Position numbers and translations under genes: made by a program. The notes below the pieces were generated by a model, which had not been told where the DNA came from, did no database searches, and was given only the letters and a program-made list of their open reading frames with translations. A DNA stretch of 64,000 bases from Desulfuromonadales bacterium (GTDB taxonomy: Bacteria; Desulfobacterota; Desulfuromonadia; Desulfuromonadales; SZUA-540): contig JAWSUS010000007.1 of the NCBI GenBank assembly GCA_033549025.1, positions 85,522 through 149,521 on the forward strand, in the 5' to 3' direction. Of the stretch, positions 8,514-25,791 are shown piece after piece (the first letter of the stretch is position 1; the number at the start of each line of letters is the position of its first letter).

Positions 8514-8598
8514 CACAGGGTGGAGGCAAGCGGCTTGACTGCCTGAGGCGAAGGTGCTAGAAATAAGGGCTTTTTACAGCCAACATGGGGGTGCGTTC

Positions 8599-9870
8599 AT
8601 GCTTGACATCAAATATCTGCGCGACAATCTGGACGAAGCCGAACGGCGTCTGGCCACCCGGGGCGGGGCTCTCGACCTTTCTGCCTTTCGGGGGCTCGAT
8701 CAGCGGCGGCGCGAGCTTTTGGGGGAATCCGAATCGCTCAAGGCCGAAAAAAACAAGGTCTCCGCCCTTATCGGGCAGACCAAAGATAAAAGTCAGGTTC
8801 AGACCGAGATCGCCCGCATGAAGGAGGTCTCCGCCCGCATCAAGACCCTCGATGACGAGCTCAAGGCCGTCGAGGAGCAGCTGCAGGGCCTGCTGATGAC
8901 CGTTCCCAATATCCCTCACGAGAAATGCCCGGTCGGCGCCTCGGAGGACGACAACCGCGAAGTGCGCGTCTGGGGCTCCCGTCCCCAATTCGACTTTGCT
9001 CCCAAGCCGCACTGGGAAATCGGTGAGCAGCTCCGTATTCTCGACTTCGAGTGTGCCGGCAAGCTGACTGGGGCCCGTTTTGCCCTCTACCGGGGAGCCG
9101 GTGCCCGCCTGGAAAGAGCCCTGATCAACTTTATGCTCGACCTGCATACAACCCGCCATAAATATATTGAAATTTTGCCGCCCTTTATGGTAAATAGGGT
9201 CTCCATGACGGGGACAGGACAGCTCCCCAAGTTTGAAGACGATCTTTTTCATTTAGAAGACCCGGATTTTTTCCTCATCCCGACGGCCGAGGTTCCTGTA
9301 ACCAATATCCATCGGGACGAGATTCTGGCGGCTGGTACGCTACCGGTCCTTTACACGGCTTATACGCCCTGCTTCCGCAAGGAAGCCGGATCCCATGGCA
9401 AGGATACGCGTGGCCTTATCCGCCAGCACCAGTTCAACAAAGTTGAGCTGGTCAAGTTTGTCCGGCCGGAGCAGTCCGACGCTGAACTGGAAAGCCTGCT
9501 GGATAACGCCGAGGAGGTGCTCCGGCAATTGGGGCTTCCCTACAGAGTCGTGGATCTCTGTACGGGGGACATCGGCTTCTCCGCCGCCCGCACCTTCGAC
9601 ATCGAAGTCTGGCTGCCCGGACAGGATGCCTACAGGGAAATATCCTCCTGCTCCAACTTCCGCGATTTTCAGGCTCGCCGGGCCGGTATTCGTTTCCGGC
9701 GGGAAGAAGGAGAGCGGCCCGAATTCGTTCATACGCTGAATGGATCCGGACTGGCGGTAGGACGCACCCTGGTGGCGATTCTCGAAAACTACCAGCAGGC
9801 CGACGGGTCGGTGCTGATCCCGGAAGTCCTCCGGCCCTACATGGGCGGCTTGGAGCGCATCGAAGCCTGA
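8599..9870 (+). CDS. serS: Serine--tRNA ligase
   Basis: MLDIKYLR start, coiled-coil arm, [44 protein letters not shown]. Confidence 0.97.
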
Positions 9871-9882
9871 TAAAGTGACTGC

Positions 9883-9948
9883 GGAGGAGTGGCCGAGTGG
9901 TTTAAGGCGGCGGTCTTGAAAACCGTTGTACGAAAGTACCGTGGGTTC
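9883..9948 (+). pseudogene. 5' portion of host tRNA-Ser(UGA), interrupted in the T-loop (left junction of the element)
   Basis: GGAGGAG acceptor strand, D arm, GCGGT-CTTGAAA-ACCGT anticodon arm, variable arm, GTGGGTTC, then unrelated TTATATCC; the matching 3' end is at 25619-25644. Confidence 0.9.
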
Positions 9949-9963
9949 TTATATCCGCCTCAG
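9949..9963 (+). repeat. Left imperfect terminal inverted repeat TTATATCCGCCTCAG
   Basis: 12/15 match to the reverse complement of 25604-25618 (TTATATAAGGCTCAG). Confidence 0.75.
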
Positions 9964-10012
9964 AACGCTGCACGTTTTAAAAACAATTGATAATTATTTT
10001 TATATAGAACTA

Positions 10013-10102
10013 GGTGGGCTGGCCGAGTGGTTGAAGGCGCTGGTCTTGAAAACCAGAAGCGATTAACGTCGCTCCGGGGTTCGAATCCCTGGCCCACCGC
10101 CA
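10013..10102 (+). tRNA. tRNA-Ser(UGA), element-encoded complete copy
   Basis: Acceptor GGTGGGC/GCCCACC, anticodon arm CTGGT-CTTGAAA-ACCAG, long variable arm, GGTTCGAATCC T arm, G discriminator, encoded CCA. Confidence 0.93.
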
Positions 10103-10112
10103 AAATAATAGT

Positions 10113-10288: not shown

Positions 10289-11746
10289 ATGAAAGCCGGC
10301 AGACGTTACAAGCACCTCGCACTGCTAAAAACGGCCAAGAACGGAAAACCAACGTTTGCGTTGCTGGCCGAAGATCAGGCCTTGTGTGACTTCTTCGATC
10401 ATTGGGCATACCTGCTCGCCAAAAATAACAGCCCTAACACCGTCCGTGCCTACTCCTACGCAGTTGCAGATTTTCTCAATTATATCGAAGAGATATCAAT
10501 TCGGTTCGGCCCCCTCACCCGGGCCTTGCTTCGTGAGGCAATTGACAGCTATGAGAGCTACCTTGTTTTTGGTGAAGACAGCGATGCTGAGATGGCGGCG
10601 GCGGCGGCCAAGGTGCTTGGCTCAAGAAGCTTGTCGGGAGGCTCCGTCGAGCAGCACTTTGCTGGTGTAAATCGATTTATCGAGCAAAGCGAGAATCTTC
10701 GACAAAGCCTGCAATCTCTCGTAGGTACAGGTTTTTTGTCCGGACCCGCCAGCGCAGCGACAGCGTTGGTGGAGTATGGTTACGCCGACACGCCCGCCAA
10801 GGTTCAGGCAGCGATAAAGGGGAACAGTTGGCTGGCTGGGTGTATCAGCGGTGGTTACAAGAAGTTGGCGAAGAGGGGGTTGGGGAAAAAGGCCAAGGCG
10901 TCAGGCGTGGCTCACACAAATGAACACGGTGGCGACGATAAGACTTTTCCTTATGATCTCGCCGTCGCCACGATTAAACAGGCCCCTTCTACTCGTGAAA
11001 TGCTCTTGTGGTCTCACCTCTGCGCTACTGGATGTAGGGTGCATGAGGCTTTAACAACTCTAATCGATGACATAATCATCGATATCAACGACCCAACCAA
11101 CAATAGTGTTCGTATAGTCGACCCAGAAAAAAGGCGTAATGTGCTCTCTAGGTATCTGACCGAGGAGCAGATCAACATGCTTCCCCATAAAGGTAGACAG
11201 ACAGAGACAACATATATGATTGAACCCTTTGCCTCAATGTTCTGGAAGTATCTCGATAAGTACATCCAAGAGGAGAGGGGTAAGGACAAAGGAAAAGGAA
11301 GGATTGTAACGCACAAGTTTCTTTATAGAAAACTAACCGACGGTGAGCCTTGCGTTAACTCCTACCAAACCCTTTGGGAGCGTTTCCATACTGTTTCCTT
11401 AAAGGTTACAGGGGAGTCTTACGGGTTTCACTCTTTAAGGCATATGTATGCCTACTATTTAGTGAACTTTGCCCCTAATCCAAGCGGTGGCTTTGGTTTC
11501 GATTTGAAGACCGTTGGTGATTTACTTGGTCAAAAAAGTTTAAGTGCAACAAAAAGGTACGCAAGGAAAGACGCGCAATTGCTTAGCATCGCCATAGGCG
11601 CTATGAATTACGAGAGGGATAGGAACCCCCACTTTTCTATTGCAAGCGCAAGACTATCTTTTCTTGAAAAGGAAGTGGAGAAGTTAAAGATGCAGATCGA
11701 GTACAATAATGCGGCCGGGGGGAAAGACATTGGTCAACTTAACTGA
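10289..11746 (+). CDS. Tyrosine recombinase/integrase 1
   Basis: N-terminal SPNTVRAYSYAV (SAM-like) region; catalytic TGCRVHEAL, HKGR, FHSLRHMY, LLGQ, TKRY; ATG 10289 follows GGAGGGG. Confidence 0.88.
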   Translation: MKAGRRYKHLALLKTAKNGKPTFALLAEDQALCDFFDHWAYLLAKNNSPNTVRAYSYAVADFLNYIEEISIRFGPLTRALLREAIDSYESYLVFGEDSDAEMAAAAAKVLGSRSLSGGSVEQHFAGVNRFIEQSENLRQSLQSLVGTGFLSGPASAATALVEYGYADTPAKVQAAIKGNSWLAGCISGGYKKLAKRGLGKKAKASGVAHTNEHGGDDKTFPYDLAVATIKQAPSTREMLLWSHLCATGCRVHEALTTLIDDIIIDINDPTNNSVRIVDPEKRRNVLSRYLTEEQINMLPHKGRQTETTYMIEPFASMFWKYLDKYIQEERGKDKGKGRIVTHKFLYRKLTDGEPCVNSYQTLWERFHTVSLKVTGESYGFHSLRHMYAYYLVNFAPNPSGGFGFDLKTVGDLLGQKSLSATKRYARKDAQLLSIAIGAMNYERDRNPHFSIASARLSFLEKEVEKLKMQIEYNNAAGGKDIGQLN

Positions 11747-14700
11747 TCGCCCGATATGGAATGTAGACGATTCCGAGGTCGGGGTCAAAATAAGAAGAGC
11801 TGTAACCGAGGTTCATCGAATATGTAGAAGCATTATTCCCGTTGGCACAACCGGCAAACAATCAGCTATGGTGCCAACCTTAAAGGTCCTTGAATCGAAA
11901 GACCTTAGAACTATTGACACTTGGTCCATTGACAAGGCGAACAAGTTCATAGATAGGGCCGCACACACCAAGGACGTATCCCCTCCAGGGGGGGTAGATG
12001 ATATTTTTGGCGGAATCGCCAAGTGGGGCGCCACCCGTGGGTTTGGTACCTTCGCAAAGTTGGTGGTGATCCAATTGTGGATTGACGAAGTATTGATCGC
12101 CCCGTTGAATTACGGTGCGCCGTCAAACACAGACCATATACTGGATGCTTTGATCGCCAATGGTGAAAACAGCATCCTCGTTGATGTTCGCTCGGTGAAT
12201 AAACTATCAAAGTTCGAGTATAGGGGGAGCGATAAGTTAGAGGATAGGAATAGGAGGGCCAATCATTGGTTTAGGCTGCTGCTGAATACCTCATTCTATA
12301 AGGTCGAGTCTTTAACCGAAGACGATATTAAAGTCCTTTTAAGGGCTGGTAGTGGCGTTAAAAGCTTGTTGCCGAGGTATTACGTCCCCGACTTCCTTTT
12401 ATCAATTACGGCCAAAAATGCAGAACTAAAGAAAACCGTCTCTGATCTGATTAGTGGCCATAAAGTGTCCGTTGCCGAAGCTTATAGTGCCGGTAGGGCG
12501 GAAAAGGCAACTCTGCCACCTCGGGTTAATAAAGGAGAATTAATTCCTAAGCTCTGTCTCGACTATTCAAGTGGATCGGACCCGGACATATCGCTGGAAG
12601 ATCTGGTTGGCGAGGTTGTTGGGACCATAAACCTTAGGAAGGTTTTCGGTGGCTCCCATGCGGATATGGGTCTGCCCATCTACAAAGGGCTTCCAGATAA
12701 GGTAAGGGATTTTTGTCAGTTAATAAACACGACGTTTTCAAGCTTCATTAGGACGGCAGGGCAAATAAAAGGCGACAATTATATCTTCGCCAAAAATATT
12801 ATGATGTTTTACATATCGGTATGCCTGCCGAGGTTCTATCTGGATAGAGATGGGAGACTAGAAGAGTATCCAACTACGCTTAATGAATTCTCCTGTCCCT
12901 ATTATGTTACAAGGGACTCCTTGTTGGACGATGTTCTCGATTATGACAAGAAGGCTCCAGACACGCTGATATCATTTGTGAACCTGTATTCAGACCTTCA
13001 TGATTGGGTAAACGATACTCTCTATGCTCGTGTGCTGATACTGGAAAAGTATTTTCAGTATATAGTTGACAACAGAACACTGATTCCGAACTCCGATAAA
13101 GTAACAAACACCTTTACTAAGGCCAATTATCCAAGAACAGCCAGGCGAACAGGAACGGCCAAGAAGCCAATACCAAGGAAATACTTCTCCACGTTCGTCG
13201 GATTATTATATACGCTTGAGTATTTGGTGACCCATCTAAACGCCATGGCCGATGGGCTTGCGCCCGGCTCAATTAACGGCAGTCTGCAATATGTGACCAG
13301 GGCCGAACTTGAAGAGCGGCATCTGTGGAGGGGGCTGTGGGGTAAGCCGGGGAGTATCGGCGGCCTGCTTGACCTGTCTTTATTGAACTACACGCCGATA
13401 TATTTACACGGAGGCAAATATAGGCCGCTAAAAAAGTGTCACAGGTTCTACAGTATTTCAGAGTACGAACAGAAAGACGGTGTTCCTATCTCTTACGCAA
13501 GCCCTCACGAGATAAGAGCAACCATCCTGATGTGTGAAACAGGTATAAGACAAAAGCACCTACTATGGTTGGACGTCGACCGGTATGACTGTTTTGTCGA
13601 TAGAAGCCACGACCATGTACTATGCCCGTTGCTTGTAAATACAGACAAGGCCCATGATGAATGGACTGCTATCGTCAGCGCCAGGGTCATTAAAGTATGT
13701 GATCGACAAAGAGATTTTTACTTAAACTGTGGTGACCCGAGCTTTGACGAAAATATGTGGTACAGCGAAAGTGAAGGAGCCAAGTTCGGCAAGTTCAAAC
13801 CGCTGTTCCGCCAGCCAAAGGCCGCAACCAGTTGGACGAACCATATAGCATTCCCCAAACTCCTCTGGACATTGCAGCACATCATTCACGAGGATCTGAA
13901 GGAGTATGATGCTCCTGACCTTGTCATGCTTGCGTCCACCACTGGAAAAGGAGAGCGAACCGAAGTCATCGAATATACAGAAAAATCCCTGTCCGGATAC
14001 AGGATTATCAGCAAGCACACCCCGCATGCGCTTCGGGCGGGCTTTGTGACAGAGGCCATCAGGTTTCTGCCCCCGTCGCTGATCGGTGAGTGTATGACCG
14101 GCCAAACGGAGTCCTTGGTCTGGTATTACACCGTCACCGACCCTAATGACTTCACGAGCCACCAGCAGTTGCTGGCCAACTACCTATCCAAAAACGCAGA
14201 GGCAATATCACGAGGAGACGCTCCAGAGCTGGCCGCAACCGTGGCGAAGGTAAACAAAAAGCTGATGTCCGCTATTGAGGCCGACCCGGCCGCCGCAGTA
14301 GAAAAATATAAGCTTATGAGCCTCACCGGGATCTCGGAAGACAAGACGGGTCTGAAGCTGGTCCTAGCCAAAAAGCACACGAAGCTGGCCTTTAACCCGT
14401 CTCATATATGCCCATTCGACAACAGGTGCCCCAAGGAGGTCTTCGAGGCGTACGGGCCGAATAGGCCGTGTGCTCTCTGTACGTATTCGATTCGAGGTGT
14501 CCCTCACTTGCCTGCGGTCAGCGCTTGCAAGAGCAAGAACTTTGAGCTGATGGGCGAATATCAACAAAAAATCATCGAATACATTAAGCGGCCGAAGTCG
14601 GCCCAAAATGCAAGTGAGCTAGAAAAGCTCAACGATGAACATGACAATGCTATGCGAGAAGCAACGGCGCTAGAAGCGATAGAACAGCAGCTCTATGCCC

Positions 14701-15086
14701 TGTCAGAGTCCGAAGACAGTAATGCCTACATTGTGCAAGAGAAGGATGCCCTAGTGGCACACTTTGAGAAGGTCGAACTTAACGAGGCAGAGCACCTTAT
14801 AAAAAGGCTTGTCGACGTGCAGAACTTTCCAGATCTTGACAGTCCCACCATCCAACGGAAATTCGCCTATCTAAGAAAGAAGCTCCTCATTAATGATGGT
14901 GACTTGGCCGGTCTTTTAAGTGACTTCGACGGAGAAACAGAGGTTAAATTATTGACATCACAGTTGAAGAGCATGATGGATGTGAAGAAACTTGGAGTAA
15001 AGGAGATATTTAAAATAGCCTCTTCAAATCCAAGGACTGAGCAAAACCTTTCATCCGGTTCTTCGATAAAGAATCTCTTGACCTAA
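11709..15086 (+). CDS. Large (~1120 aa) tyrosine recombinase 2 with long N-terminal region and Cys-rich C-terminus
   Basis: ETGIR, NTDKAH, TPHALRAGFVT, TGQ-x5-WYY catalytic set; C-terminal CPFxxxC...CxxC; overlaps integrase 1 (start may be TTG 11730). Confidence 0.8.
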   Translation: MRPGGKTLVNLTDRPIWNVDDSEVGVKIRRAVTEVHRICRSIIPVGTTGKQSAMVPTLKVLESKDLRTIDTWSIDKANKFIDRAAHTKDVSPPGGVDDIFGGIAKWGATRGFGTFAKLVVIQLWIDEVLIAPLNYGAPSNTDHILDALIANGENSILVDVRSVNKLSKFEYRGSDKLEDRNRRANHWFRLLLNTSFYKVESLTEDDIKVLLRAGSGVKSLLPRYYVPDFLLSITAKNAELKKTVSDLISGHKVSVAEAYSAGRAEKATLPPRVNKGELIPKLCLDYSSGSDPDISLEDLVGEVVGTINLRKVFGGSHADMGLPIYKGLPDKVRDFCQLINTTFSSFIRTAGQIKGDNYIFAKNIMMFYISVCLPRFYLDRDGRLEEYPTTLNEFSCPYYVTRDSLLDDVLDYDKKAPDTLISFVNLYSDLHDWVNDTLYARVLILEKYFQYIVDNRTLIPNSDKVTNTFTKANYPRTARRTGTAKKPIPRKYFSTFVGLLYTLEYLVTHLNAMADGLAPGSINGSLQYVTRAELEERHLWRGLWGKPGSIGGLLDLSLLNYTPIYLHGGKYRPLKKCHRFYSISEYEQKDGVPISYASPHEIRATILMCETGIRQKHLLWLDVDRYDCFVDRSHDHVLCPLLVNTDKAHDEWTAIVSARVIKVCDRQRDFYLNCGDPSFDENMWYSESEGAKFGKFKPLFRQPKAATSWTNHIAFPKLLWTLQHIIHEDLKEYDAPDLVMLASTTGKGERTEVIEYTEKSLSGYRIISKHTPHALRAGFVTEAIRFLPPSLIGECMTGQTESLVWYYTVTDPNDFTSHQQLLANYLSKNAEAISRGDAPELAATVAKVNKKLMSAIEADPAAAVEKYKLMSLTGISEDKTGLKLVLAKKHTKLAFNPSHICPFDNRCPKEVFEAYGPNRPCALCTYSIRGVPHLPAVSACKSKNFELMGEYQQKIIEYIKRPKSAQNASELEKLNDEHDNAMREATALEAIEQQLYALSESEDSNAYIVQEKDALVAHFEKVELNEAEHLIKRLVDVQNFPDLDSPTIQRKFAYLRKKLLINDGDLAGLLSDFDGETEVKLLTSQLKSMMDVKKLGVKEIFKIASSNPRTEQNLSSGSSIKNLLT

Positions 15087-15109: not shown

Positions 15110-15754
15110 ATGGTGGCTAAGAAGAAGAGAACGTTTGATCCCTTTGAGGAGCATAGGGAAGGGAAGGTCAATAAAAGACTTCGCCACGTAAGGACTTCCC
15201 TTTCGATTTTGAAGAATAGCAAATACAATAGCATGACAAAGCTCGCCGAGGCTGTTGCGGCGCTTGTTACCGAGTTCGAGTTGAGGGATGCGGGGGTTAA
15301 TGAAAAGACCGATGAAATAAAGGGTTGCGACCCATCGGCGCTGATTCGGAGTGGCTCTAAGTATAGAGAGGCCATACAAGCAGGCTGGGAGATACGTCAG
15401 GGCGGTAGTGAAAAGGAAGGCGAGGGTGTTTCCGAGTTAGAGTCTCTAAAGATCAGGTGCGCAAACCTCGCCCACCATAACGATCTGCTAGAAAGAAGGC
15501 TTGAGCATAAGGGTCTGACTGCACTGCTCGAGCAGCCTAATGCTGCGCTAGAGGAAAAGGTCAAGGATATTAGGGCCTTGCTTGACATTATCAACGGGGT
15601 GTTTGGGCAAGTGGCAGACTTGTTCACGACGGTACTGGAGGGGGATGAAGACTCTGAGCACCCCGAGGCGGGTCTGTACGGGCCGCATGGCCTGGCTGTG
15701 GGAATTGAGGCGTTGAAGCGCCTTAAGGGGGCGCAAGATGGACAAAAAGATTAG
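15110..15754 (+). CDS. Hypothetical protein, third gene of the recombinase operon (coiled-coil; possible accessory factor)
   Basis: Co-directional 214-aa ORF that overlaps the next gene; function inferred from position only. Confidence 0.6.
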   Translation: MVAKKKRTFDPFEEHREGKVNKRLRHVRTSLSILKNSKYNSMTKLAEAVAALVTEFELRDAGVNEKTDEIKGCDPSALIRSGSKYREAIQAGWEIRQGGSEKEGEGVSELESLKIRCANLAHHNDLLERRLEHKGLTALLEQPNAALEEKVKDIRALLDIINGVFGQVADLFTTVLEGDEDSEHPEAGLYGPHGLAVGIEALKRLKGAQDGQKD

Positions 15755-16217
15755 TCCCCATGAGAAGGGCATCCTGAACGCCAAGAACTACGCCAAGTAC
15801 GTTAAGGGCCTGGAAGAAAACGGGAAGCAGTTTCCGGTTAATCAGTTTGGCGAGGTCAATAAGGAGGCTGTCGCTGCGGCCTGTGGCTTTAATCGTCAGG
15901 TCTTCAACCCAAAGAGTAACAAGAAGATGGCGGATCGCCTGGCGGCCGACGTAGATAGGATCGGGATTGAAGGTGAATATATACCGCCACAAGCCCCGGG
16001 AGAGTCAGAAGGTGCACTGGCCAGGAGGGCAAAGAAAAGTGCGGAGACCGTTAGCAAGCTCAGGAAGGATCTGGCCATAGAGAAAGAAAAGGTCACGTCT
16101 CTTGAGGTGCAAATAAAAAAGCTCGAATACGAGCTTGATACGCTTAAACAGTCATCTGCCGAGCAGAAGAACAGCTTTGACTTTATGGTTTCCACCGGCA
16201 GAAGGTTCACTCTATGA
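15738..16217 (+). CDS. Small HTH/coiled-coil accessory protein (resembles VPA1267 family)
   Basis: GEVNKEAVAAACGFNRQVF HTH-like segment, C-terminal coiled coil ending TGRRFTL; ATGA overlap with the helicase. Confidence 0.55.
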   Translation: MDKKISPHEKGILNAKNYAKYVKGLEENGKQFPVNQFGEVNKEAVAAACGFNRQVFNPKSNKKMADRLAADVDRIGIEGEYIPPQAPGESEGALARRAKKSAETVSKLRKDLAIEKEKVTSLEVQIKKLEYELDTLKQSSAEQKNSFDFMVSTGRRFTL

Positions 16218-18388
16218 GAATCTCCGAAATCGTCGAAGTCAGAAATGTATGGCCTTCCCCGTTTGGTGGCGCCATGTTTAAGTGCGTAAAAGCCGGAGGA
16301 AGTCGACTGTTCTTATGCAAGGCAGGATACAACGTTCTTGCCAGGATACCCAAGGAGTCTGAGTTCTGGAAAATAACCGGAGATATGACCTACACCCAAG
16401 AAAATGGTGTCGTTTGTAATGTTATTTCGGCTGTGGTCACCGGCCTGCCATCAGACAAATATGTCGGCGGCCTGTTGAAAACCCATGATGCCTTCAGGGG
16501 TTTCGATTTCGGTCTAAAGAAGATCGACCGGCTCCTCGATGCTACCGCCGACTCCGACCTCGTTGATATGCTCAACAGTGGGGATTGGCAGTCCATCTCA
16601 AACACCGGGTTGAGCGAGAAGATATCTAAGCGGGTGTGCGAAGAGTGGGGCAAGCTGAAGGAGGAGAGGGATCTAGCTACCTTCTTGCACGACCATCAGC
16701 TTGACAGTAGCTTGGCCTCCAAGGTCATCAAAATGTGCTCCCGCAACCCCATGGAGAGGCTAAAGAATAACCCCTTCTCCCTGCTCGCCTTGAGCAACGC
16801 TACAATCCGGAACCTGCAAGATATCGCAGGGATAGCCAGCAGGCTGGGCATTGACGAAAACGATGACCGGACTCTTGTTGGCCTCGTAGAGTTTGCCCTG
16901 TATGAGGCTCTGGAGGATGGGAGCACCATTGTCGAGGTCGACGCCCTGAGGGCCAGGATCTCCGAACTCAGCAAGCTGGTGGGCACTACCCTGCCACCAG
17001 ACGCCGCCATCTGTGCAGCATTGAAGATCAAGGCCGTCTGTGTGTTTACGGAGGACGGCAAATACTTTATTCAGTTGATCGGAGTTGCCTACATCGAACA
17101 AAGTGTCGAGAAAAAGCTTTCCTGGCTACAAAAACAGCCAATGCAGCTTCGACTGAAAGAGTTGTCTGGGGGCACCCTGACTGAAAAGGTGAGCGCCTAC
17201 AATAAGCGACTGCGTAACAGTGAGGGATATTCGCTTACAAACCAACAGTGTGATGCAGTTGAAATGGCTCTCTCTAACAGACTTTCCTTGCTGTCAGGTT
17301 TTGGTGGTACGGGTAAAACGACTGTTCTTAAAGCCATAGTTGAGCTTGCCGAAGAATTTGAAATACCAGTACATGTCTGTGCTTTAGCTGGAAAGGCGGC
17401 CGACAGAGCGCGGCAGTCAATCAACCGTGAAACCTTCACTATTCATGGGTTGATATACGAGATAATAAAATCCAACGGTAAGGTTAATAAGGGGTCAGAT
17501 CCGCTCATTATCATTGATGAGTCCTCCATGGTCGACATTTCACTTGTCAGGAAATTCCTTTCTTCATTCGGCGATAGCCCATTTAAGGTTCTGCTGGTCG
17601 GAGATACTGCACAGTTGGCTCCAATTGGGTTTGGCTTGTTCTGGCACGAGATGGTTAAGTCGGACGTGCCGAAGGTTCACTTGACCAAGGTCCATCGCCA
17701 GTTGGCAGGAAGCCCCCTGCATAATGCGGCAATGCATATCAGAGAGGGCCAAATTCACGCCCTGGAGAAGTATTCGGGCCAAGAGGAGGGTATCTACCTT
17801 CTCGGAAGCATCGGCGACCCCAGGGTGGCGATACGCGATCTCATGAGGGAGGTGGATGCGGTTACGCTTACTTCGTACTCCAGCGACCGAATCGCTGGCT
17901 CATCAAGCCAGCTAAACGCTTACCTGCAAGGCGAACTTAACTCCAAGAGAGGAGTAAGTATGGGGCTTGCCACTATAGCTTTAAAGACTGGCGATCCAGT
18001 TATTGCGACGATCAACAACCAGGCGCTGGGCATTTACAATGGTATGGCGGGCTTTGTTAAGTCCATCGTTATTGATGGCGACGGTACAATGGGCTGCAAT
18101 ATCAAGTTTGACGACAGATCAAGCGAGATATTACTTTCGAGGGACGAGTGTTTCGAGGTTGGTCTCGATCTGGGATATGCCATAACTATTCATAAATCCC
18201 AGGGCAGCGAATATGAAAGCTGTATTGTCTGCTTGAGTAAGAACCTTGAAAGAAGTGCTATATACACCGCTGTAACAAGGACAAAGAAACTCTGCATTAT
18301 TGTAGGCACTCAGCAGCAATATAATGATGCCGTCCGGGGGGAGCCGCGATACGAGCAGATCCAGTGTGGGTTTAGGTGCGCAGCCTAG
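16214..18388 (+). CDS. RecD2-like SF1B helicase
   Basis: Walker A GFGGTGKT, IIDESSMVD, VGDTAQLAPIG, HRQ, YAITIHKSQGSE, YTAVTR; NPF/HhH N-terminal region. Confidence 0.88.
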   Translation: MRISEIVEVRNVWPSPFGGAMFKCVKAGGSRLFLCKAGYNVLARIPKESEFWKITGDMTYTQENGVVCNVISAVVTGLPSDKYVGGLLKTHDAFRGFDFGLKKIDRLLDATADSDLVDMLNSGDWQSISNTGLSEKISKRVCEEWGKLKEERDLATFLHDHQLDSSLASKVIKMCSRNPMERLKNNPFSLLALSNATIRNLQDIAGIASRLGIDENDDRTLVGLVEFALYEALEDGSTIVEVDALRARISELSKLVGTTLPPDAAICAALKIKAVCVFTEDGKYFIQLIGVAYIEQSVEKKLSWLQKQPMQLRLKELSGGTLTEKVSAYNKRLRNSEGYSLTNQQCDAVEMALSNRLSLLSGFGGTGKTTVLKAIVELAEEFEIPVHVCALAGKAADRARQSINRETFTIHGLIYEIIKSNGKVNKGSDPLIIIDESSMVDISLVRKFLSSFGDSPFKVLLVGDTAQLAPIGFGLFWHEMVKSDVPKVHLTKVHRQLAGSPLHNAAMHIREGQIHALEKYSGQEEGIYLLGSIGDPRVAIRDLMREVDAVTLTSYSSDRIAGSSSQLNAYLQGELNSKRGVSMGLATIALKTGDPVIATINNQALGIYNGMAGFVKSIVIDGDGTMGCNIKFDDRSSEILLSRDECFEVGLDLGYAITIHKSQGSEYESCIVCLSKNLERSAIYTAVTRTKKLCIIVGTQQQYNDAVRGEPRYEQIQCGFRCAA

Positions 18389-19148: not shown

Positions 19149-19372
19149 TTGAGGACATTCCTTCCCGTCTCCTCACGATACAACCCGTTCTATGGCCATA
19201 CCCTTAAAGGCGCACTGAAGCAAATCAAACGCCTACTTGGCTGGGAAGCCGAAAATGCCTACGTTGACAAGGGCAACCCGAAGCAACTGGGCAAGACCAA
19301 TGTTCATCTGAACATGGAACTTTATTCGATTGTGGCCTGAAGGCGAAATTTCGAGTTTTTCAGGGACGACTA
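19149..19372 (+). mobile_element. IS5-family (IS1478-like) remnant: transposase fragment plus right terminal IR
   Basis: Peptide NPFYGHTL...AYVDKG resembles the IS5 DDE segment; ends TTTTTCAGGGACGACTA (19356-19372). Confidence 0.6.
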
Positions 19373-19848
19373 TTGTAAAAGACGACGTCTAAATCGAGAT
19401 AAGAACAAAAAAGGAAAAAGGGGCTCCCGCTTATTCTCCAAGCGCGTGGACGCCATTGGTTAACATTGCCATACAAAACAAGCATTGACGGGTTGTCGAC
19501 GTAATTATCTGGAAACCTAGCTATATTTCTCAGGGCTTTTTTGTCTTTTCCGCTGAGGATTCCAGGCCCCGATGGGTGCGTATGCCAATCTCCCAAGTAA
19601 AAAATCTGCCCATCTTTTTCATCATAAATCCGCCCCATCTCTTCTCTCTGATAGTCTTCATCGGGGCTAAAAAAGCATTCCCCATGCACAGCATTAAGGC
19701 CTGGCCCGACCATGCCTGTGGCAACGATCTCTGTATTGTCTCTTGAGAAGTAACCGACTAAAAGCCCCCCTGTTTCCAGGGGGGCTTTATCGTTCGCCTC
19801 ATCAAGCATCTCTTGATAAACGTTATTATTTATCCAGATCCTTTTCAT
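19360..19848 (-). CDS. JAB/MPN+ (Prok-JAB) metallo-isopeptidase
   Basis: ETGG catalytic Glu and YLGDWHTHP-x6-S-x2-D JAMM motif; ATGA overlap with the upstream E2-E1 gene. Confidence 0.9.
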   Translation of the reverse strand: MKRIWINNNVYQEMLDEANDKAPLETGGLLVGYFSRDNTEIVATGMVGPGLNAVHGECFFSPDEDYQREEMGRIYDEKDGQIFYLGDWHTHPSGPGILSGKDKKALRNIARFPDNYVDNPSMLVLYGNVNQWRPRAWRISGSPFFLFCSYLDLDVVFYNSRP

Positions 19849-21623
19849 TTACCGCACCACGGGTTGCTACAATCAGGATGCTTTTCCAGCTCAAAAGACT
19901 CCCACTTTGGGAAGATTGCTTTACCATTTTCACGCAAATGCAGAATCCCAACATCATTATCCATTGCTGGATAGTCGCCAGAAGAACCATCGCACATTAT
20001 CGATATTGCCATGCGAACACCAGCCAGAGAAATTTCCTGAACATCAAAACTTGTTGCCTTGAATGTTAAATCTCCGCACCCTACCGGCTGAAGTTCATCT
20101 CCCTCTGGGTCGAAAGTAGGTTGAGATATTTTGCCTTCCTCTAGCGCCCTTAGGTAGCAGAGGAAGCATCCTTTACCAGACAAAATCCTAACAACACTCC
20201 CGCCCCATCCTCCAGGACGTGAAGATACAGCAACATACGGGATACTATACTTTTTTGCCATATCCGCGATGAGATGGTTTATTCCAAGCTCAGCCGTTGC
20301 GTCATAAATAAGATCTGCCCCATCTAGCAACCTTTTCAGGCCTTCAAACTGGTCATAATCTGGAGTAACCTGACCAAGAATTATTCTGAAATCATCATTA
20401 CCTGCATCCGGATAATGATCCGTTCCAATTCGTGTTAAAGGATAATTTTCACGAATCTTTTCAGACAGGAATTGGACCTTGCCCGATGTTATTGCTGACA
20501 TTCCTTCAGGCCATCGGCAAACTGTTCCGGAACTTACATAGTCTCCATCCCACAATCTCAGTTCAGCAACTCCTGCACGTGCGAACTCCAATGCGCTCGG
20601 AGCACCCACACAACCCAAGCCAATAACGGCGACAGTCTTTTCTCGTAATGGCCTTAACTCAGGGACCCGTTGAAAAAGATCATTTTCACCTATTGCTTCC
20701 GTTGTTATTACCCAAGTCGCTACCTCGATTTTTTTCTTCCCGCCCTCTTTGTACATTTTTGTCTGATACGCCAGAAACAACCAACCATCCCTGTATCCAC
20801 CACCGGGGGCTTCTTCCTTGAAACAGAAGCCATGAACTCCGCTTCTGCCCTTATTAATTTCATTATCAATCACACGATAGGCTACCGGGTTTATAGCCCT
20901 TATACTTTCACAAAACGTAACACCAGAGCTTAGCCTTGGCACCTTATCAATTCGTGACCACCTGATAGTATCCACACTATTTGTTTTAGCGGTTGCATAC
21001 GCTCCAATCGCAGGGTTTACGGAGCAGTCGCCTACCACGCTCTTGTCACTCTTCTGTATTGAGTGAACCCATGCTTTAAGCGGTTTATGAGGAGAGATTT
21101 TTCTTATGGGGTGGGTTGAAAATATTCTCAAAAGCCCCTCCCTGACTTTTTCAGGCAAGGACCAAGAGCTGTCCATCAAAAATATTTGGTTCTTGAATGG
21201 AGCAAAATAAGCACTTTGCGGCTCCGCTTGATGATCCTCTGTATCTAAACGCGAGTCATCAAAACCACGAACTGCCGCCCTCTCCCATTCCGGGAGCATT
21301 TCAACAATATGCTTAGCTGCCGTCCTGCAAGGTTGCCACTCTCCGGTACCTCTTTTCAGAAGGCATATTTCGCCGGTATGAGGGTTATAGTGCCGCAGAC
21401 CACCCCCCAGGCCCAAGCAATTTACTACCGGTCTGAAGTATGGATAAAGCTGAGGATACTCGATCCAGCCATTTTCACCCTGGCCGAATATTGTGAGTTT
21501 TATCCGAACAACAGCAAGGCCTCTAGCAAATGATTCATCGTCCTTAACTGGTTGCAAACCAGATTCTTGGAGTGCGGTGAGTTCTTCGTCTAAAACGGCA
21601 GGGTACTCATCCCACCACCGCAT
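19845..21623 (-). CDS. E2-E1 (ThiF) fusion ubiquitin-like transferase, Cap2-like architecture
   Basis: N-terminal E2 features (YPQLYPYFRP, HYNPHTGEICLL with Cys); C-terminal E1 (VIGLGCVG, WDGD, YDATA, CFLC and C-terminal Cys pair for Zn, PVGCGDLTF catalytic-type Cys). Confidence 0.85.
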   Translation of the reverse strand: MRWWDEYPAVLDEELTALQESGLQPVKDDESFARGLAVVRIKLTIFGQGENGWIEYPQLYPYFRPVVNCLGLGGGLRHYNPHTGEICLLKRGTGEWQPCRTAAKHIVEMLPEWERAAVRGFDDSRLDTEDHQAEPQSAYFAPFKNQIFLMDSSWSLPEKVREGLLRIFSTHPIRKISPHKPLKAWVHSIQKSDKSVVGDCSVNPAIGAYATAKTNSVDTIRWSRIDKVPRLSSGVTFCESIRAINPVAYRVIDNEINKGRSGVHGFCFKEEAPGGGYRDGWLFLAYQTKMYKEGGKKKIEVATWVITTEAIGENDLFQRVPELRPLREKTVAVIGLGCVGAPSALEFARAGVAELRLWDGDYVSSGTVCRWPEGMSAITSGKVQFLSEKIRENYPLTRIGTDHYPDAGNDDFRIILGQVTPDYDQFEGLKRLLDGADLIYDATAELGINHLIADMAKKYSIPYVAVSSRPGGWGGSVVRILSGKGCFLCYLRALEEGKISQPTFDPEGDELQPVGCGDLTFKATSFDVQEISLAGVRMAISIMCDGSSGDYPAMDNDVGILHLRENGKAIFPKWESFELEKHPDCSNPWCGK

Positions 21624-21775
21624 TAGCCTACCTGTCTTCCTCCACCAGGATTCGGACGATCGGCTGGACGATTCCCGGGATTTTCTGGAGGGGTAGCTGG
21701 AGTTGCAGGATTTCCTGGCCCATTAGGGTCTGCCGGTGTTGCAGGATTTCCTTGGCCTTTATCATTGTTTGCCAT
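21623..21775 (-). CDS. 50-aa low-complexity peptide ending in Gly; candidate modifier (not in ORF track)
   Basis: MANNDKGQGNPATPADPNGPGNPATPATPPENPGNRPADRPNPGGGRQVG*; GAGG RBS 7 nt upstream; TAATG stop/start overlap with the E2-E1 gene. Confidence 0.8.
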   Translation of the reverse strand: MANNDKGQGNPATPADPNGPGNPATPATPPENPGNRPADRPNPGGGRQVG

Positions 21776-21832
21776 AACCGAACCTCATCTTTTCGTTAGA
21801 GTACAACATATTAATCAAATCCAACAACACCC

Positions 21833-21861
21833 AAGTTATCACTCCAAAACGAGACCGTCAA
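21833..21861 (-). promoter_or_regulatory. Putative sigma70 promoter of the peptide-E2/E1-JAB operon
   Basis: Minus strand TTGACG-17 nt-TAACTT, about 58 nt upstream of the peptide ATG. Confidence 0.55.
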
Positions 21862-21899
21862 CCAAAAACACAATATAAAAGTATGAAGCGAAATCCAAA

Positions 21900-21915
21900 C
21901 CACTATATATTGTGG
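21900..21915. promoter_or_regulatory. NrdR-box-like palindrome
   Basis: cCACTATATATTGTGg matches aCACwATATATwGTGt; weaker partial copy CACAATATAAAAGT 32 bp away at 21869. Confidence 0.45.
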
Positions 21916-21931
21916 CATATATCGAATTAGG

Positions 21932-22815
21932 TGTTAGAAATCTGAGCGTTGTTTACACTTTTTCGCCATAGAAATGATCGAGTAGCTTTTCGTATGGCGT
22001 CATCCCGTCAATGCCTTTGTAGGGCTTGACCGTGTTGTAGAAGTTAGTGAAGCGCAGCAGGCTGATCTGGCGACTCTTTCGATCACCGAACGTTTCCTTC
22101 TGGTGCCACATCTCCATAAGCGTGAGGATCGCGCGTTCTGCTTTGCCATTGGTCTGAGGTCGATTGATCGAGTGAATTTTTGGCCAATACCGAGTTCAGC
22201 GCAGGTTTTTACAAAAGCGTGTTCGCTGACTCCTCTGAATTCTTTGCCGTTGTCTGAGTAGGTGTATTCGATGGTGTAAAGACTTTCATCGGCAACCTGG
22301 CGCAAAAAGAGTTCAGCACTGTATTGGGTCTTGTCCGGGAATATCCCAGCGTAAAGTTCCCGGGAAAAATCGTCAATGGCGACGAACAGATACTCTCTGG
22401 GAAGTGACTGATCCTCGCCTTTAATCAACGGGAGACGTTTGCTTTCAAAATGGACCAACTCTCCCGGATATGATTTGTTGTAACGCCTGGCTTCACGTTT
22501 GCGCTTTTCTTCAAGCTCGCGTTCAACCTTGGCTAGACGCTTTAGCCCATACTTGAGGCTGCGGAAACGATTATTGACGCTGCGTCTCGGAACGAATTCC
22601 TGCTTCCTGGCCCGGGCCAGTGTCTTGTAAATCGTTGGCCGTGAGACGCGATACATTTCTGCCAGGCGACTGACCTTGTATTCGCCTGTCTGCCATAACT
22701 GCCAAATCTTCTGGCGGTCATGGGGTGTTAACCGTATGTGTTTGTGCATGACCATGTTTGCAAAATCCTCCTTCACCAATATCGGATTCTGTAAACAATG
22801 CGTCAATTTCTTACA
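21932..22815 (-). mobile_element. IS481-family element with frameshifted transposase
   Basis: TGT...ACA ends with ~26-bp imperfect IRs; AATTAGG direct repeats at 21925-21931 and 22816-22822; AIDDFSR and SDNGKEF motifs; RPQTNGKAER lies in another frame after a shift near 22170. Confidence 0.88.
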
Positions 22816-23021
22816 AATTAGGTATTAAAATGATTTATGCTTAATTGCCCGTCTTAATGTTTACCCCAACACAATCCAATAGCTAGATTACTTATTTTGG
22901 CGTGTTTTTACGTTTTGGGTTGGGATAAGGGTTAAGTGTAACGGGTAAAACGAGAAAGTTATCATACAAAATTGAAGCTGTATGATATGTGTATCTATTG
23001 ATTGAATATCAAAAACTATTT

Positions 23022-23038
23022 TAGTCGTCCCTGAAAAA
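23022..23038 (+). repeat. IS5-family terminal IR TAGTCGTCCCTGAAAAA (start of a second, truncated IS copy)
   Basis: Perfect 17-bp reverse complement of 19356-19372; no transposase follows. Confidence 0.7.
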
Positions 23039-23270: not shown

Positions 23271-24425
23271 ATGGAAATGCTTAAATATTATCTGGGGGGA
23301 CGTGAGCAGGCGTTTATAAAACATGCCCTGCTTAAGGCATATTTGGAAAAACTGTTCATGATAATCGGGCAGCGACAGAGGTGCATTTGTTATGTGGATT
23401 GCTTCTCAGGACCCTGGGAGGAAAGCGCAGAGAACCTCATGGATACATCCATAGGTATCTCGCTTGATATAATGGCAAAGTGCCGTAAAGCCTTGGCTGC
23501 AATGAGAAACGAAGTGAAGTTCCGTGCGCTTTATATAGAAAAAACAAGGAAGTCATATGATAAACTTCAGGATTTCCTAAAACAAAGCAAGGAACTAGGG
23601 GTGGAGACTAGAGCCATAAGAGGAGAGTTCCACAATAATCTCAATGAAATTATTGACTGGTGCGGAAGCAAAGACTTTGTCTTCTTTTTTGTTGATCCAA
23701 AGGGCTATGCAAATGTAATTGAACCACAAACACTTGAGCCGCTTCTACATAGAAAAAACTCAGAGATACTAATAAACTTTATGTATGATCATATTAATCG
23801 ATTTGTCGAATCAAAATCAAATAGGAATTTAATTGTTGATATATTCGGAGAGGTACCTGTAGTTGGTGGCCTTGAACCAAAGAAGAGAGAAGAATACCTT
23901 CTTGAATTATATAGACGAAGGCTCAAGAGTGTTATGTCCGAAGTTGGCGGGGTGCCTCGATTCGCATATGTAAGCGTGGTAGACACAGAGAAGAGTAAAA
24001 CAAAGTACGAAATGGTGTACCTGACTAGGCATGCATTAGGCATATTGAAGTTTTTAGAGGTATCTGAACCTTTGGAGATAATACAAAAGCAAGTTAAACA
24101 GAAAGCCAAAGAGCATCGATCAAAGCAGCCGTCGTTGTTCTCCTTCGAGGAGATTCCCGAAGTGAACGAGGGGGTTAGCATTGAAGAAGTGAAACATTTT
24201 TGGCTGAGAAAATTGAGCACTGTCCCTGAGCCTTTTGGCTATGATAGGATGGCTGACATGCATGAAGAGACAGGCTGGTTGCTAGGTGATTTTCAGCGTG
24301 CCTTCTCGGAACTGCTCAAAGAAGGCAAAGTGCAAAATATTGACATGAGTAAGCCTCGTCGCTCAAGGCCTATCCACTTTGAGGAGAACCGAGGTGAAGG
24401 CGAGCGCTTGAGAAAGCTGGTATGA
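23271..24425 (+). CDS. tcmP: Three-Cys-motif partner protein TcmP (methyltransferase-like fold with C-terminal wHTH)
   Basis: KHALLKAYL, YVDCFSGP, FFFVDPKG, SEILINFM motifs; ATGA overlap with DUF5131. Confidence 0.8.
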   Translation: MEMLKYYLGGREQAFIKHALLKAYLEKLFMIIGQRQRCICYVDCFSGPWEESAENLMDTSIGISLDIMAKCRKALAAMRNEVKFRALYIEKTRKSYDKLQDFLKQSKELGVETRAIRGEFHNNLNEIIDWCGSKDFVFFFVDPKGYANVIEPQTLEPLLHRKNSEILINFMYDHINRFVESKSNRNLIVDIFGEVPVVGGLEPKKREEYLLELYRRRLKSVMSEVGGVPRFAYVSVVDTEKSKTKYEMVYLTRHALGILKFLEVSEPLEIIQKQVKQKAKEHRSKQPSLFSFEEIPEVNEGVSIEEVKHFWLRKLSTVPEPFGYDRMADMHEETGWLLGDFQRAFSELLKEGKVQNIDMSKPRRSRPIHFEENRGEGERLRKLV

Positions 24426-25162
24426 GTACAAAGTCAAAGATCGAATGGACCGAGCAGACATGGAACCCTGCGGTGGGTTGCAGCAAGGTTTCCCCCGGCT
24501 GCACAAACTGTTATGCCGAGGTGATGGCAAAACGCCTCCAGGCAATGAAGGTAAACGGCTATCAGAATGGATTCGAACTGACCACGTTGCCGAAACGGCT
24601 GGAGGAGCCGCTTATGCGCCAGCGTTCAACAGTTTTTTTTGTCAACTCGATGAGCGACCTGTTCCATGAGGAGATACCCTTCGACTATATTGATAGAGTT
24701 TTCGAAGTGATAGCGAAAACTCCGCGCCATACATACCAAGTCCTAACAAAGCGTGCCGAACGCATGGCCACCTATTTTGCAGAGCGTAAGACACCGCCGA
24801 ACGTTTGGCTTGGTGTGACCGTGGAAGACCGTAAGCATGGTCTTCCACGCATTGATCACTTACGGCAGATCCAAGCCTGCATACGGTTTCTCTCTATGGA
24901 GCCGCTACTGGAAGATCTTGGCCCGGTTGACCTGACTGACATCCAATGGGTTATCGTTGGAGGCGAGTCGGGACCGAAGGCAAGGCCAATGAGGCCCGAA
25001 TGGCCCAAGAGTATTCAGCGCCAGTGTCAAAAGCAAGGAGCTGCTTTTTTCTTCAAGCAGTGGGGTGGATGGGGTCCAGATGGTATTAAGCGGGCGAAGA
25101 AAAAAAATGGTCGCATTCTTGACGGCAGAACATGGGATGAAACTCCGGCAATGTTCGGATAG
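24422..25162 (+). CDS. DUF5131 / phage Gp37-Gp68 family radical-SAM-like protein
   Basis: SKIEWTEQTWNP, GCSKVSPGCTNCYA, FVNSMSDLFH, QVLTKR, WVIVGGESG, FFKQWGG. Confidence 0.88.
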   Translation: MSTKSKIEWTEQTWNPAVGCSKVSPGCTNCYAEVMAKRLQAMKVNGYQNGFELTTLPKRLEEPLMRQRSTVFFVNSMSDLFHEEIPFDYIDRVFEVIAKTPRHTYQVLTKRAERMATYFAERKTPPNVWLGVTVEDRKHGLPRIDHLRQIQACIRFLSMEPLLEDLGPVDLTDIQWVIVGGESGPKARPMRPEWPKSIQRQCQKQGAAFFFKQWGGWGPDGIKRAKKKNGRILDGRTWDETPAMFG

Positions 25163-25478: not shown

Positions 25479-25508
25479 TTGACATTAGCAGTGCATTTCA
25501 ATTAGTAT
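25479..25508 (+). promoter_or_regulatory. Putative outward-facing sigma70 promoter near the right end of the element
   Basis: TTGACA-18 nt-TAGTAT. Confidence 0.45.
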
Positions 25509-25603
25509 TGCCACCGTCCACGGAACATCGTGGACGCTCTAGTAGGCGAGCCGTTTCTCTAGGCGTCAGGCTTACTTACATACGGTTGGGAAGTGGGATC
25601 ACC

Positions 25604-25618
25604 CTGAGCCTTATATAA
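25604..25618 (-). repeat. Right imperfect terminal inverted repeat
   Basis: CTGAGCCTTATATAA directly before the GGGTTC core. Confidence 0.75.
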
Positions 25619-25644
25619 GGGTTCGAATCCTACCTCCTCCGCCA
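25619..25644 (+). pseudogene. Displaced 3' end of host tRNA-Ser(UGA) (right junction)
   Basis: GGGTTCGAATCCTACCTCCTCCGCCA; CTCCTCC pairs with GGAGGAG at 9883 and not with the element tRNA. Confidence 0.9.

Positions 25645-25695: not shown

Positions 25696-25791
<96 letters not shown>

What the first reader, a model, noticed from the sequence alone, without database searches (positions are those of the whole stretch)
9883..10102. Element destroys the host tRNA-Ser(UGA) and supplies its own full-length, divergent replacement
Most tRNA-targeting islands restore the gene by duplicating its 3' end. Here the host gene is left broken: 9883-9948 plus 25625-25644 rebuild a normal 86-nt tRNA. A complete same-anticodon tRNA with different acceptor, anticodon-stem and variable-arm sequences sits 64 nt inside the element. 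Inference: this complements a probably essential isoacceptor, makes imprecise loss of the element costly, and changes the tRNA body, which might affect re-targeting or tRNA-nuclease sensitivity.
Basis: partly seen in the sequence, partly recalled or inferred. Interest (0 to 1): 0.8.

Follow-up and report, generated by a model that had tools for sequence, protein, structure and literature searches.

The report
Island breaks and replaces serine tRNA
A 15.7-kb mobile DNA island has cut this bacterium's only gene for one serine transfer RNA in two and carries its own different copy, and related islands in other bacteria do the same to many other transfer RNA genes.

Summary
Confirmed. A 15.7-kb island splits the host tRNA-Ser(UGA) in its T-loop. 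Two congeners carry the intact gene. The island's 90-nt copy, 64 nt inside, is the only intact Ser(UGA) found in the genome.

The island encodes two tyrosine recombinases plus a small helical protein, remotely like GMT/SE/Tn554 elements but far below family cut-offs.

This is a family rule. Of 73 T-loop junctions (12 anticodons), 69 have a same-anticodon tRNA just inside and none a mismatch. The other four have a decayed or distant copy. Target and carried tRNA switch together on the recombinase tree. In 7 of 19 elements the right 6-mer is foreign, an SE/Tn554-type footprint.

In Pseudomonas the element-type tRNA is the resident gene in several lineages lacking the recombinase, with decaying intermediates, which points to permanent replacement of a core tRNA.

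The principle is published (phage tRNA-dependent lysogeny; GMT islands carrying homologues of disrupted genes), and this scan noted it earlier in other island families. Eight paper searches found no account of this family. Expression and mobility are untested. New variant of a known kind.

The parts
8554..9870 (+). Host serS (seryl-tRNA synthetase); ends 12 nt before the broken tRNA, probable source of read-through transcription (inferred)
   Evidence: TIGR00414 560 bits; ORF
9883..9948 (+). 5' part of host tRNA-Ser(UGA), cut after C56 of the T-loop; the last 6 bp (9943-9948, GGGTTC) are the host crossover core
9949..9964 (+). Left terminal imperfect inverted repeat of the island (begins TTAT)
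   Evidence: 12 of 16 identical to the right end; TTAT start shared by most relatives
10013..10102 (+). Island-borne complete tRNA-Ser(UGA), 90 nt, CCA encoded
   Evidence: ARAGORN; Rfam 58.4 bits
10113..10150 (+). Intrinsic terminator-like hairpin (17 pairs) after the island tRNA
10289..11746 (+). Tyrosine recombinase 'Y', 485 aa from ATG 10289 (518 aa from GTG 10190); remote GmtY-like
   Evidence: PF00589; GmtY 21.6 bits vs cut-off 340; invariant R250, K301, H381, R384, Y424 in 66 homologues
11709..15086 (+). Large recombinase 'Z', 1125 aa; tyrosine-recombinase core, variable N-terminal half, C-terminal Cys cluster; remote GmtZ-like
   Evidence: invariant R607, K640, H766, R769, Y800 (numbered on the 1118-aa form); fold hits to Tn1549 Int and XerA with weak E; Atlas neighbours carry PF13009
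15110..15754 (+). Third core gene 'X', 214 aa, helical; positional counterpart of GmtX/TnpC/Srap (inferred)
   Evidence: an ORF of similar size follows Z in 46 relatives; no family hit
15738..16217 (+). Fourth gene, 159 aa, present in part of the family; weak VPA1267-family hit
   Evidence: 19 loci by tblastn; 18.5 bits vs cut-off 90
16214..18388 (+). Cargo: RecD2-like helicase
19356..23038 (.). Cargo: nested 3.7-kb segment with 17-bp perfect inverted repeats; holds JAB (19360-19848, minus), E1-E2-like (19845-21623, minus) and an IS481 transposase (22000-22806, minus)
23271..25162 (+). Cargo: TcmP (23271-24425) and DUF5131 (24422-25162), similar to PADLOC PDC-M30 A/B candidate defence pair
25479..25508 (+). 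Outward-facing sigma70-like promoter inside the right end; could drive the cut-off host tRNA-Ser(GCT) (inferred)
   Evidence: 10 of 12 consensus; a similar site in only 1 of 16 other elements' right ends by the test (plus weak hits in L109)
25603..25618 (-). Right terminal imperfect inverted repeat
25619..25624 (+). 6-bp GGGTTC at the right junction; read as the footprint of the previous target, here identical to the host core
   Evidence: differs from the left core in 7 of 19 elements
25625..25644 (+). 3' remnant of host tRNA-Ser(UGA): rest of T-loop, T-stem, acceptor strand, CCA
25696..25789 (+). Host tRNA-Ser(GCT), about 50 nt behind Ser(UGA) at the empty site, now 15.7 kb from serS

Best explanation
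The island belongs to an apparently undescribed family of tyrosine-recombinase trio elements that break a tRNA gene and replace it. Y, Z and X insert the element after the conserved GTTC of the T-loop of one particular tRNA gene. Only a 6-bp core is exchanged, so the gene is not rebuilt. The element carries a complete tRNA with the same anticodon, usually 44-76 nt inside its left end, where the host gene's own transcription can read into it; a terminator then insulates the recombinase genes. Insertion into an essential single-copy tRNA is lethal without the matching copy, so target and cargo stay coupled. Movement most likely follows the SE/Tn554 route through a circle that carries the previous target's 6 bp to the new right junction. 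When the element decays the tRNA has to stay and can become the host's resident gene. SHOWN in sequence: split gene, empty sites, sole intact copy, anticodon matching, foreign right 6-mers, decay series. INFERRED: transcription by read-through, charging, essentiality, circular intermediate, roles of the three proteins, protein-based target choice, direction of transfer in the largest Pseudomonas clade.
For: Empty sites in congeners. Sole intact Ser(TGA) in G000. In G436, G437, G438-G441 and G443 there are exactly two Ser(TGA) arms, the broken and the island copy. Junction-first survey of 136 loci: 73 junctions, 69 with a same-anticodon tRNA within 260 nt, 0 mismatched; 54 of 54 after dereplication against a permutation mean of 12.8, maximum 24. 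The four without an adjacent copy: L051 and L052 have an intron-bearing Ser(TGA) near the right end behind a promoter-like site; L050 has a Leu(TAG) about 9.7 kb in, the only other Leu(TAG) arm in that genome; L049 has a decayed Gly copy. Recombinase tree: 14 target anticodons need 14 changes (minimum 13, shuffled 36.5). Island tRNAs are no closer to their own host gene than to other hosts' (0.77 vs 0.76, n=47) but often 0.95-1.0 identical to other islands' tRNAs, so they travel with the element. 7 of 19 right 6-mers differ from the left, and the left one is the one that pairs with the remnant T-stem, as described for SE/Tn554. Decay and domestication series in Pseudomonas.
Against: No expression, charging or mobility data; RNA runs held only relatives' empty sites. 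No promoter-like site in 9800-10400, so read-through is assumed. L137 (Thr TGT) shows no replacement in the 2.5 kb of contig after its junction. The right end of L050 was not found, so its Leu copy is not proven to lie inside. Targets that wobble rules (recalled) make dispensable (Gly CCC, Ser CGA, Arg CCT, Leu CAA) are matched too, which lethality alone does not explain. G659 has an intact native Ser(TGA) as well as the island copy. For seven tree rows the link between trio and junction rests on being in the same genome more than 10 kb apart or on another contig. Five of the 19 end pairs lie on different contigs (L021, L044, L047, L052) or have two candidate ends (L109). 12 of 19 identical 6-mers also fit a plain target duplication.
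Confidence: 0.85

Rival explanations
1. The island tRNA is ordinary cargo or a local duplication of the host gene, and its position is incidental; the host copes without it.
For: A few relatives carry a near copy of their own host gene (3 of 51 at 0.95 or more: L021, L037, L039; L067 rounds to 0.95). One copy has decayed (L049). One genome has a native copy too (G659). Island ORFs use TCA more than flanking host genes (17% vs 8% of Ser codons).
Against: 0 mismatches in 73 junctions over 12 anticodons; co-switching on the tree; the window copy differs from its host gene and is closest to other islands' tRNAs; no other UCA reader found in G000.
Confidence: 0.05
2. The carried tRNA (gene or transcript) itself selects the target, as a guide, which would explain why target and cargo switch together without error.
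For: L103 (CTA) and L109 (Pro TGG) have Y proteins 86-93% identical by window and Z C-terminal windows 93-98% identical, yet use different tRNAs, each matched. Presumably dispensable targets are matched too.
Against: Island tRNAs are not closer to their own target than to other hosts' same-anticodon genes (0.77 vs 0.76), they often differ in the 6-bp core, and L111 shares only 0.48 with its target. The N-terminal half of Z is highly variable (30-60%) and could carry specificity, though it also varies between same-target pairs. The copy can sit at the far end or carry an intron.
Confidence: 0.07
3. The main benefit is defence or addiction: the new tRNA body resists host or phage tRNA nucleases, or makes the host dependent on the whole island.
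For: Cargo includes defence-like genes. The phage paper raises nuclease evasion as a possibility. The tRNA body does differ.
Against: The anticodon loop is unchanged. Trio and cargo appear to be lost while the tRNA stays, so the island as a whole is not protected. No nuclease gene was identified in this island.
Confidence: 0.1

Closest known systems
tRNA-dependent lysogeny of actinobacteriophages (Guerrero-Bustamante & Hatfull 2024, PMC10865867; read: abstract, introduction, start of results, passages, discussion)
   Same: A tyrosine recombinase inserts into a tRNA gene with a short core, the gene is not rebuilt, and the element supplies a same-isotype tRNA; shown there to be needed for viable lysogens.
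   Different: Here: no phage genes found, no lambda-type arm-domain integrase but a Y-Z-X trio; the cut is in the T-loop, whereas that paper says mycobacteriophage att cores commonly lie at the anticodon loop; one family spans 14 target anticodons; the copy usually sits right behind the host gene's promoter; foreign 6-bp footprint.
Gamma-Mobile-Trio (GMT) islands (Mahata et al., bioRxiv 10.1101/2023.03.28.534373; read: passages; extended data and supplements not visible; journal version not held)
   Same: Three-gene core (recombinase, large integrase, small protein) at the 5' end, site-specific insertion, defence cargo; the paper notes that intragenic GMT islands often carry a homologue of the disrupted gene. 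GmtY is hit weakly by 65 of 66 Y homologues; GmtZ weakly by distant Z relatives; PF13009 on Atlas neighbours.
   Different: Scores are far below cut-offs (21.6 vs 340 bits for Y; window Z no hit, relatives up to 35 vs 600; X no GmtX hit). 'tRNA' does not occur in the main text. Z is about 1100 aa against a 784-position GmtZ model. Their loose PSSM search may have caught some members in datasets I could not see.
SE elements and Tn554 (Idola et al. 2023, PMC10214605; read: passages, background part 1, discussion)
   Same: [quoted passage not shown]
   Different: SEs have four core genes including Tfp; no separate Tfp here. Tn554 is described from Firmicutes. 'tRNA' does not occur in the main text. 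Sequence homology to SE or Tn554 proteins was not tested.
GInts (Bardaji et al. 2017, PMC5385486; read: passages)
   Same: Multi-recombinase genomic islands with site-specific insertion and variant junction sequences.
   Different: Four genes; targets such as ssb ends; 'tRNA' does not occur in the main text; damage is limited by inserting at gene ends or by outward promoters, not by a replacement gene.
Classical tRNA-targeting islands and prophages that duplicate the 3' end (described; P4-type clusters in PMC8138268, passages)
   Same: Use of a tRNA gene as landing site.
   Different: No 30-45-bp shared core here; only 6 bp, and the host gene stays broken.

Membership tests
tRNA-dependent lysogeny | Tyrosine recombinase inserts within a host tRNA gene with a short core; tRNA not rebuilt | tested here: met
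   6-bp core, split gene, empty sites
tRNA-dependent lysogeny | Element encodes a same-isotype tRNA | tested here: met
   69 of 73 junctions adjacent
tRNA-dependent lysogeny | Element is a temperate phage with a lambda-like arm-domain integrase | tested here: not met
   No phage genes among the island ORFs scanned; no match in 50,697 phage records; 4 strong hits in IMG/VR contigs not examined for phage genes
tRNA-dependent lysogeny | Element tRNA required for survival after insertion | not testable with these tools
   Inferred from sole-copy status
GMT islands | GmtY homologue above family cut-off | tested here: not met
   21.6 bits vs 340; best relative E 2.6e-15
GMT islands | GmtZ (Phage_Integr_2) homologue | tested here: inconclusive
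   Window Z no NCBIfam or Pfam hit; distant relatives up to 35 bits vs 600; Atlas neighbours with PF13009 at 21-100% of members
GMT islands | GmtX homologue (StbA-like DNA-binding N-terminus) | tested here: not met
   No GmtX model among hits for 36 X proteins (first 25 of 32 families shown); PDB profile search gave mostly coiled-coil hits, no StbA in the 60 shown; single-sequence model unusable
GMT islands | Trio at the 5' border; site-specific insertion; homologue of disrupted gene carried | tested here: met
   trio inverted or over 10 kb away in part of the Pseudomonas members
GMT islands | Circular intermediate, replicative transfer needing all three genes | not testable with these tools
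   No reads spanning both ends (one search covered the left end only)
SE / Tn554-type elements | [quoted passage not shown] | tested here: met
SE / Tn554-type elements | 13-19-bp imperfect terminal inverted repeats | tested here: met
   12 of 16 bp in the window; similar ends in relatives
SE / Tn554-type elements | Host 6 bp at left, donor 6-bp footprint at right | tested here: met
   7 of 19 pairs differ, host core at left each time; the window itself is uninformative (identical 6-mers)
SE / GInt elements | Separate Tfp/GinC gene between the recombinases | tested here: not met
   Y and Z overlap directly; fusion into the Z N-terminus not tested
SE / GInt / Tn554 elements | Sequence homology to IntA/IntB, GinA/GinB or TnpA/TnpB | not tested

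The most novel reading that the evidence does not exclude
The carried tRNA is part of the targeting machinery, not only a spare: the trio uses it to choose which host tRNA gene to attack, so capturing a new tRNA retargets the element in one step. This would be a tRNA-programmed tyrosine-recombinase transposon that also turns over core tRNA genes. The milder half of this, permanent replacement of the resident tRNA-Ser(UGA) in several Pseudomonas lineages by an element-borne copy, I put at about 0.7; the probability given is for guidance.
Probability: 0.07. Interest if true: 0.95.

Novelty: new variant of a known kind. Interest (0 to 1): 0.63.

Why it matters
It extends break-and-replace targeting of tRNA genes from phages to a widespread non-phage element family that hits the most conserved spot of the tRNA gene and has re-paired target and cargo about 13 times. 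Island finders that look for a duplicated tRNA 3' end will miss these elements, and annotation shows one normal tRNA. The Pseudomonas series gives a concrete route by which an essential single-copy tRNA gene is swapped for a foreign one, so tRNA gene history need not follow the genome. How specificity and cargo switch together is now directly testable with near-identical pairs such as L103 and L109. A recombinase set with many natural tRNA targets could also be useful for site-specific integration.

Tried and rejected
Assembly artefact or chance: rejected by intact empty sites and the same anatomy in unrelated bacteria.

A second host Ser(UGA): none by ARAGORN or blastn in G000.

Plain target-site duplication: disfavoured by 7 of 19 unequal 6-mers.

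Single-protein scan of genome contigs found nothing; the alignment scan worked. The recombinase was found in 0 of 400 other genomes of the host's phylum, so the element is rare there. No match in plasmids for Y or Z or in phages for Y.

A permissive graft test for right ends gave many false positives and was replaced by strict T-stem and acceptor pairing. A frame slip made uninformative (redone), and one search failed (redone).

Sequencing runs held at most 15% of the words. Contigs from two RNA and two DNA-like runs showed relatives' empty sites and no evidence on expression.

Single-sequence folding of X failed (pLDDT 44.5). Foldseek for Z gave no hit at E<=0.001. An outward promoter at the right end is not general. 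The right end of L050 was not found.

Paper searches returned no description of this family; subscription papers and bioRxiv supplements are outside the library.

Full report
OBSERVATION. The window holds the 5' 66 nt of a tRNA-Ser(UGA) gene at 9883-9948, 12 nt behind serS, and its last 20 nt at 25625-25644. Together they fold as a normal 86-nt tRNA; the 5' part alone is not called. Congeners G001 and G002 have this gene intact, followed by tRNA-Ser(GCT); 18 of 19 relative loci read are intact and one ends at a contig edge. The insert is 15,676 bp counting one 6-mer, is lower in GC than its flanks, has GGGTTC at both junctions and 16-bp imperfect inverted ends. A 90-nt tRNA-Ser(UGA) at 10013-10102 is the only intact Ser(UGA) among 55 tRNAs called in G000 (9,464 bases withheld). 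It differs from the host gene in acceptor stem, anticodon stem and variable arm and had no listed match in 40 relatives. A strong terminator-like hairpin follows, and no promoter-like site lies in 9800-10400. By wobble rules (recalled), UCA codons need this tRNA.

THE ELEMENT. Behind the tRNA come Y (485 aa), Z (1125 aa) and X (214 aa). Y is a tyrosine recombinase with invariant R, K, HxxR and Y. Z has no Pfam or NCBIfam hit, but its alignment shows the same catalytic set, its model (pLDDT 83.5) is nearest to Tn1549 integrase and XerA at weak E-values, and Atlas neighbours carry PF13009. All scores against GMT models are far below cut-off. Cargo is a RecD2-like helicase, JAB and E1-E2-like genes, an IS481 transposase and a TcmP/DUF5131 pair. 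A sigma70-like promoter faces out of the right end toward the cut-off Ser(GCT) gene.

THE FAMILY RULE. An alignment of 66 of 118 Y homologues fetched 43 genome, 80 metagenome (best 80 of 105) and 5 viral-collection loci. I searched 136 loci for broken tRNAs first and for replacements second: L021-L144, four viral loci, and eight Ser loci from genomes whose trio lay over 10 kb from any junction. About ten of these are weak unrelated hits and many have little upstream sequence. Result: 73 junctions, all after the T-loop GTTC, in 12 anticodons. In 69 the first tRNA within 260 nt has the same anticodon, in none a different one; the median gap is 62 nt. After dereplication it is 54 of 54 against a permutation mean of 12.8; kin share targets, so the tree is the fairer test. 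On a quick tree of 62 Y proteins (two short ORFs left out; seven labels taken from a distant junction in the same genome), 14 target anticodons need 14 changes, against 13 at least and 36.5 shuffled.

THE EXCEPTIONS. Two Methyloversatilis elements carry an intron-bearing Ser(UGA) near the right end. Geomonas has a Leu(UAG) 9.7 kb in, not proven to be inside. Herbaspirillum has a decayed Gly copy. The strict detector missed seven junction-type loci seen otherwise. L065, L099, L103, L107 and L235 are matched; L140 has an intron-bearing CAT copy with its junction cut off; L137 (Thr) shows no copy in 2.5 kb. Of nine Pseudomonas genomes with a close trio homologue but no nearby junction, eight have junction plus replacement elsewhere and one MAG shows no Ser(UGA) arm; a tenth genome with a distant homologue has an intact gene.

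ORIGIN OF THE COPY. Island tRNAs are on average 0.77 identical to their own host gene and 0.76 to other hosts' same-anticodon genes (n=47), but often 0.95-1.0 to other islands' copies. They travel with the element and are not local duplications, except in a few cases.

MECHANISM. For 19 elements both ends were found (four across contigs, one with two candidate ends). In 7 the right 6-mer differs from the left, and it is always the left one that pairs with the remnant T-stem. All foreign 6-mers end in GTTC, so earlier targets were T-loops too. This matches the footprint described for SE and Tn554 elements. I infer copy-out through a circle, with target choice most likely in the proteins. The N-terminal half of Z is far more variable than the rest, also between same-target pairs, so this is not shown. 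L103 and L109 have near-identical Y and Z cores but different matched targets, which keeps guidance by the tRNA open at low odds; the identity test argues against it.

AFTERLIFE. One element-type Ser(UGA) occurs in 45 of 201 Pseudomonas genomes. Of the 30 loci read, 3 have an intact junction, 3 a decaying host remnant in front, and 24 have it directly behind the host promoter. In 27 of these 30 it is the only Ser(UGA) arm matched. None of the 30 had a Ser-clade recombinase at E<=1e-30; the three hits were CAT-clade elements elsewhere. On a one-gene tree of the neighbouring gene (49 rows; native-type rows are biased to island carriers), the resident element-type state needs 4 changes, 2 forced by strong branches, with four different leader lengths. 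This supports repeated permanent replacement. For the largest clade no element trace remains, so that clade could instead be the donor. Such resident copies are broken again by the family (L021, L037, L185), so the new body does not give lasting immunity.

WHAT IS KNOWN. Break-and-complement was shown for actinobacteriophages and noted for a Lactobacillus prophage (PMC10865867). GMT islands often carry a homologue of a disrupted gene. 'tRNA' does not occur in the main texts of the GMT, SE or GInt papers; GMT supplements and extended data were not visible and might list tRNA sites. Eight searches gave no account of this family. This scan has unchecked notes of the same strategy in other island families, several cutting at the anticodon loop, and none by sequence or by words for this one.

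VERDICT. Real, and a new variant of a known strategy. It works like tRNA-dependent lysogeny with an SE/Tn554-like trio, but fails the membership tests for GMT and for phage. Expression, essentiality and mobility remain inferred. Interest 0.63.

Noticed in passing
L124:164-480, L135:1970-2285, L136:9421-9736, L140:32-346; L227:9779-10081 (minus), L270:1524-1830: Replacement tRNAs (CAT clade and Methyloversatilis Ser UGA) carry 213-239-nt introns in the anticodon loop; Rfam group I intron 92 bits in L140, 31-36 bits in L124 and L227.
   Followed up: partly
L103, L107 (27-29% GC), L111: Target and replacement both have anticodon CTA (amber-reading); in L111 the target is long-armed and the replacement short-armed. 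Possibly phage tRNA arrays or recoded hosts; not determined.
   Followed up: partly
L109:127-470 and about 11,400-11,600: Three Pro-like tRNAs (two TGG, one AGG) sit between left end and recombinase, and two candidate right ends occur.
   Followed up: no
window 19356-23038: 17-bp perfect inverted repeats bracket JAB, E1-E2-like and IS481 genes: a nested mobile segment. No nucleotidyltransferase was identified beside the CBASS-like pair.
   Followed up: no
L235 and L245 (G659): The broken 5' part lacks its first half and an intact native Ser(UGA) exists on another contig; possibly a classical island entered the remnant's anticodon loop and rebuilt the host gene.
   Followed up: no
L034, L036, L079 (also L032, L033, L041 by coordinates): In one Pseudomonas subgroup the trio is inverted and 6-45 kb away from the tRNA junction.
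   Followed up: partly
L021, L037, L064, L083, L084, L185: These island tRNAs lack an encoded CCA end; most sit where the target is itself element-type.
   Followed up: no
L044 and L128: Elements about 90% identical in the same tRNA-Gly target carry different right 6-mers.
   Followed up: partly
L002 and L003 about 2120-2280: Both congeners have about 130 extra bases after tRNA-Ser(GCT) ending in a duplicated tRNA 3' end, absent from the window: a possible scar of another island.
   Followed up: no
G000:C3 about 186116-186146: A second copy of the tRNA-Sec 3' end lies about 3.5 kb from the tRNA-Sec gene, suggesting a small classical island.
   Followed up: no
L117, L122: A Ser(CGA)-targeting member sits at the end of a dense array of about 15 tRNA genes.
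   Followed up: no
L103 upstream of 470: The element repeats about 65 nt of the host leader in front of its own tRNA.
   Followed up: no
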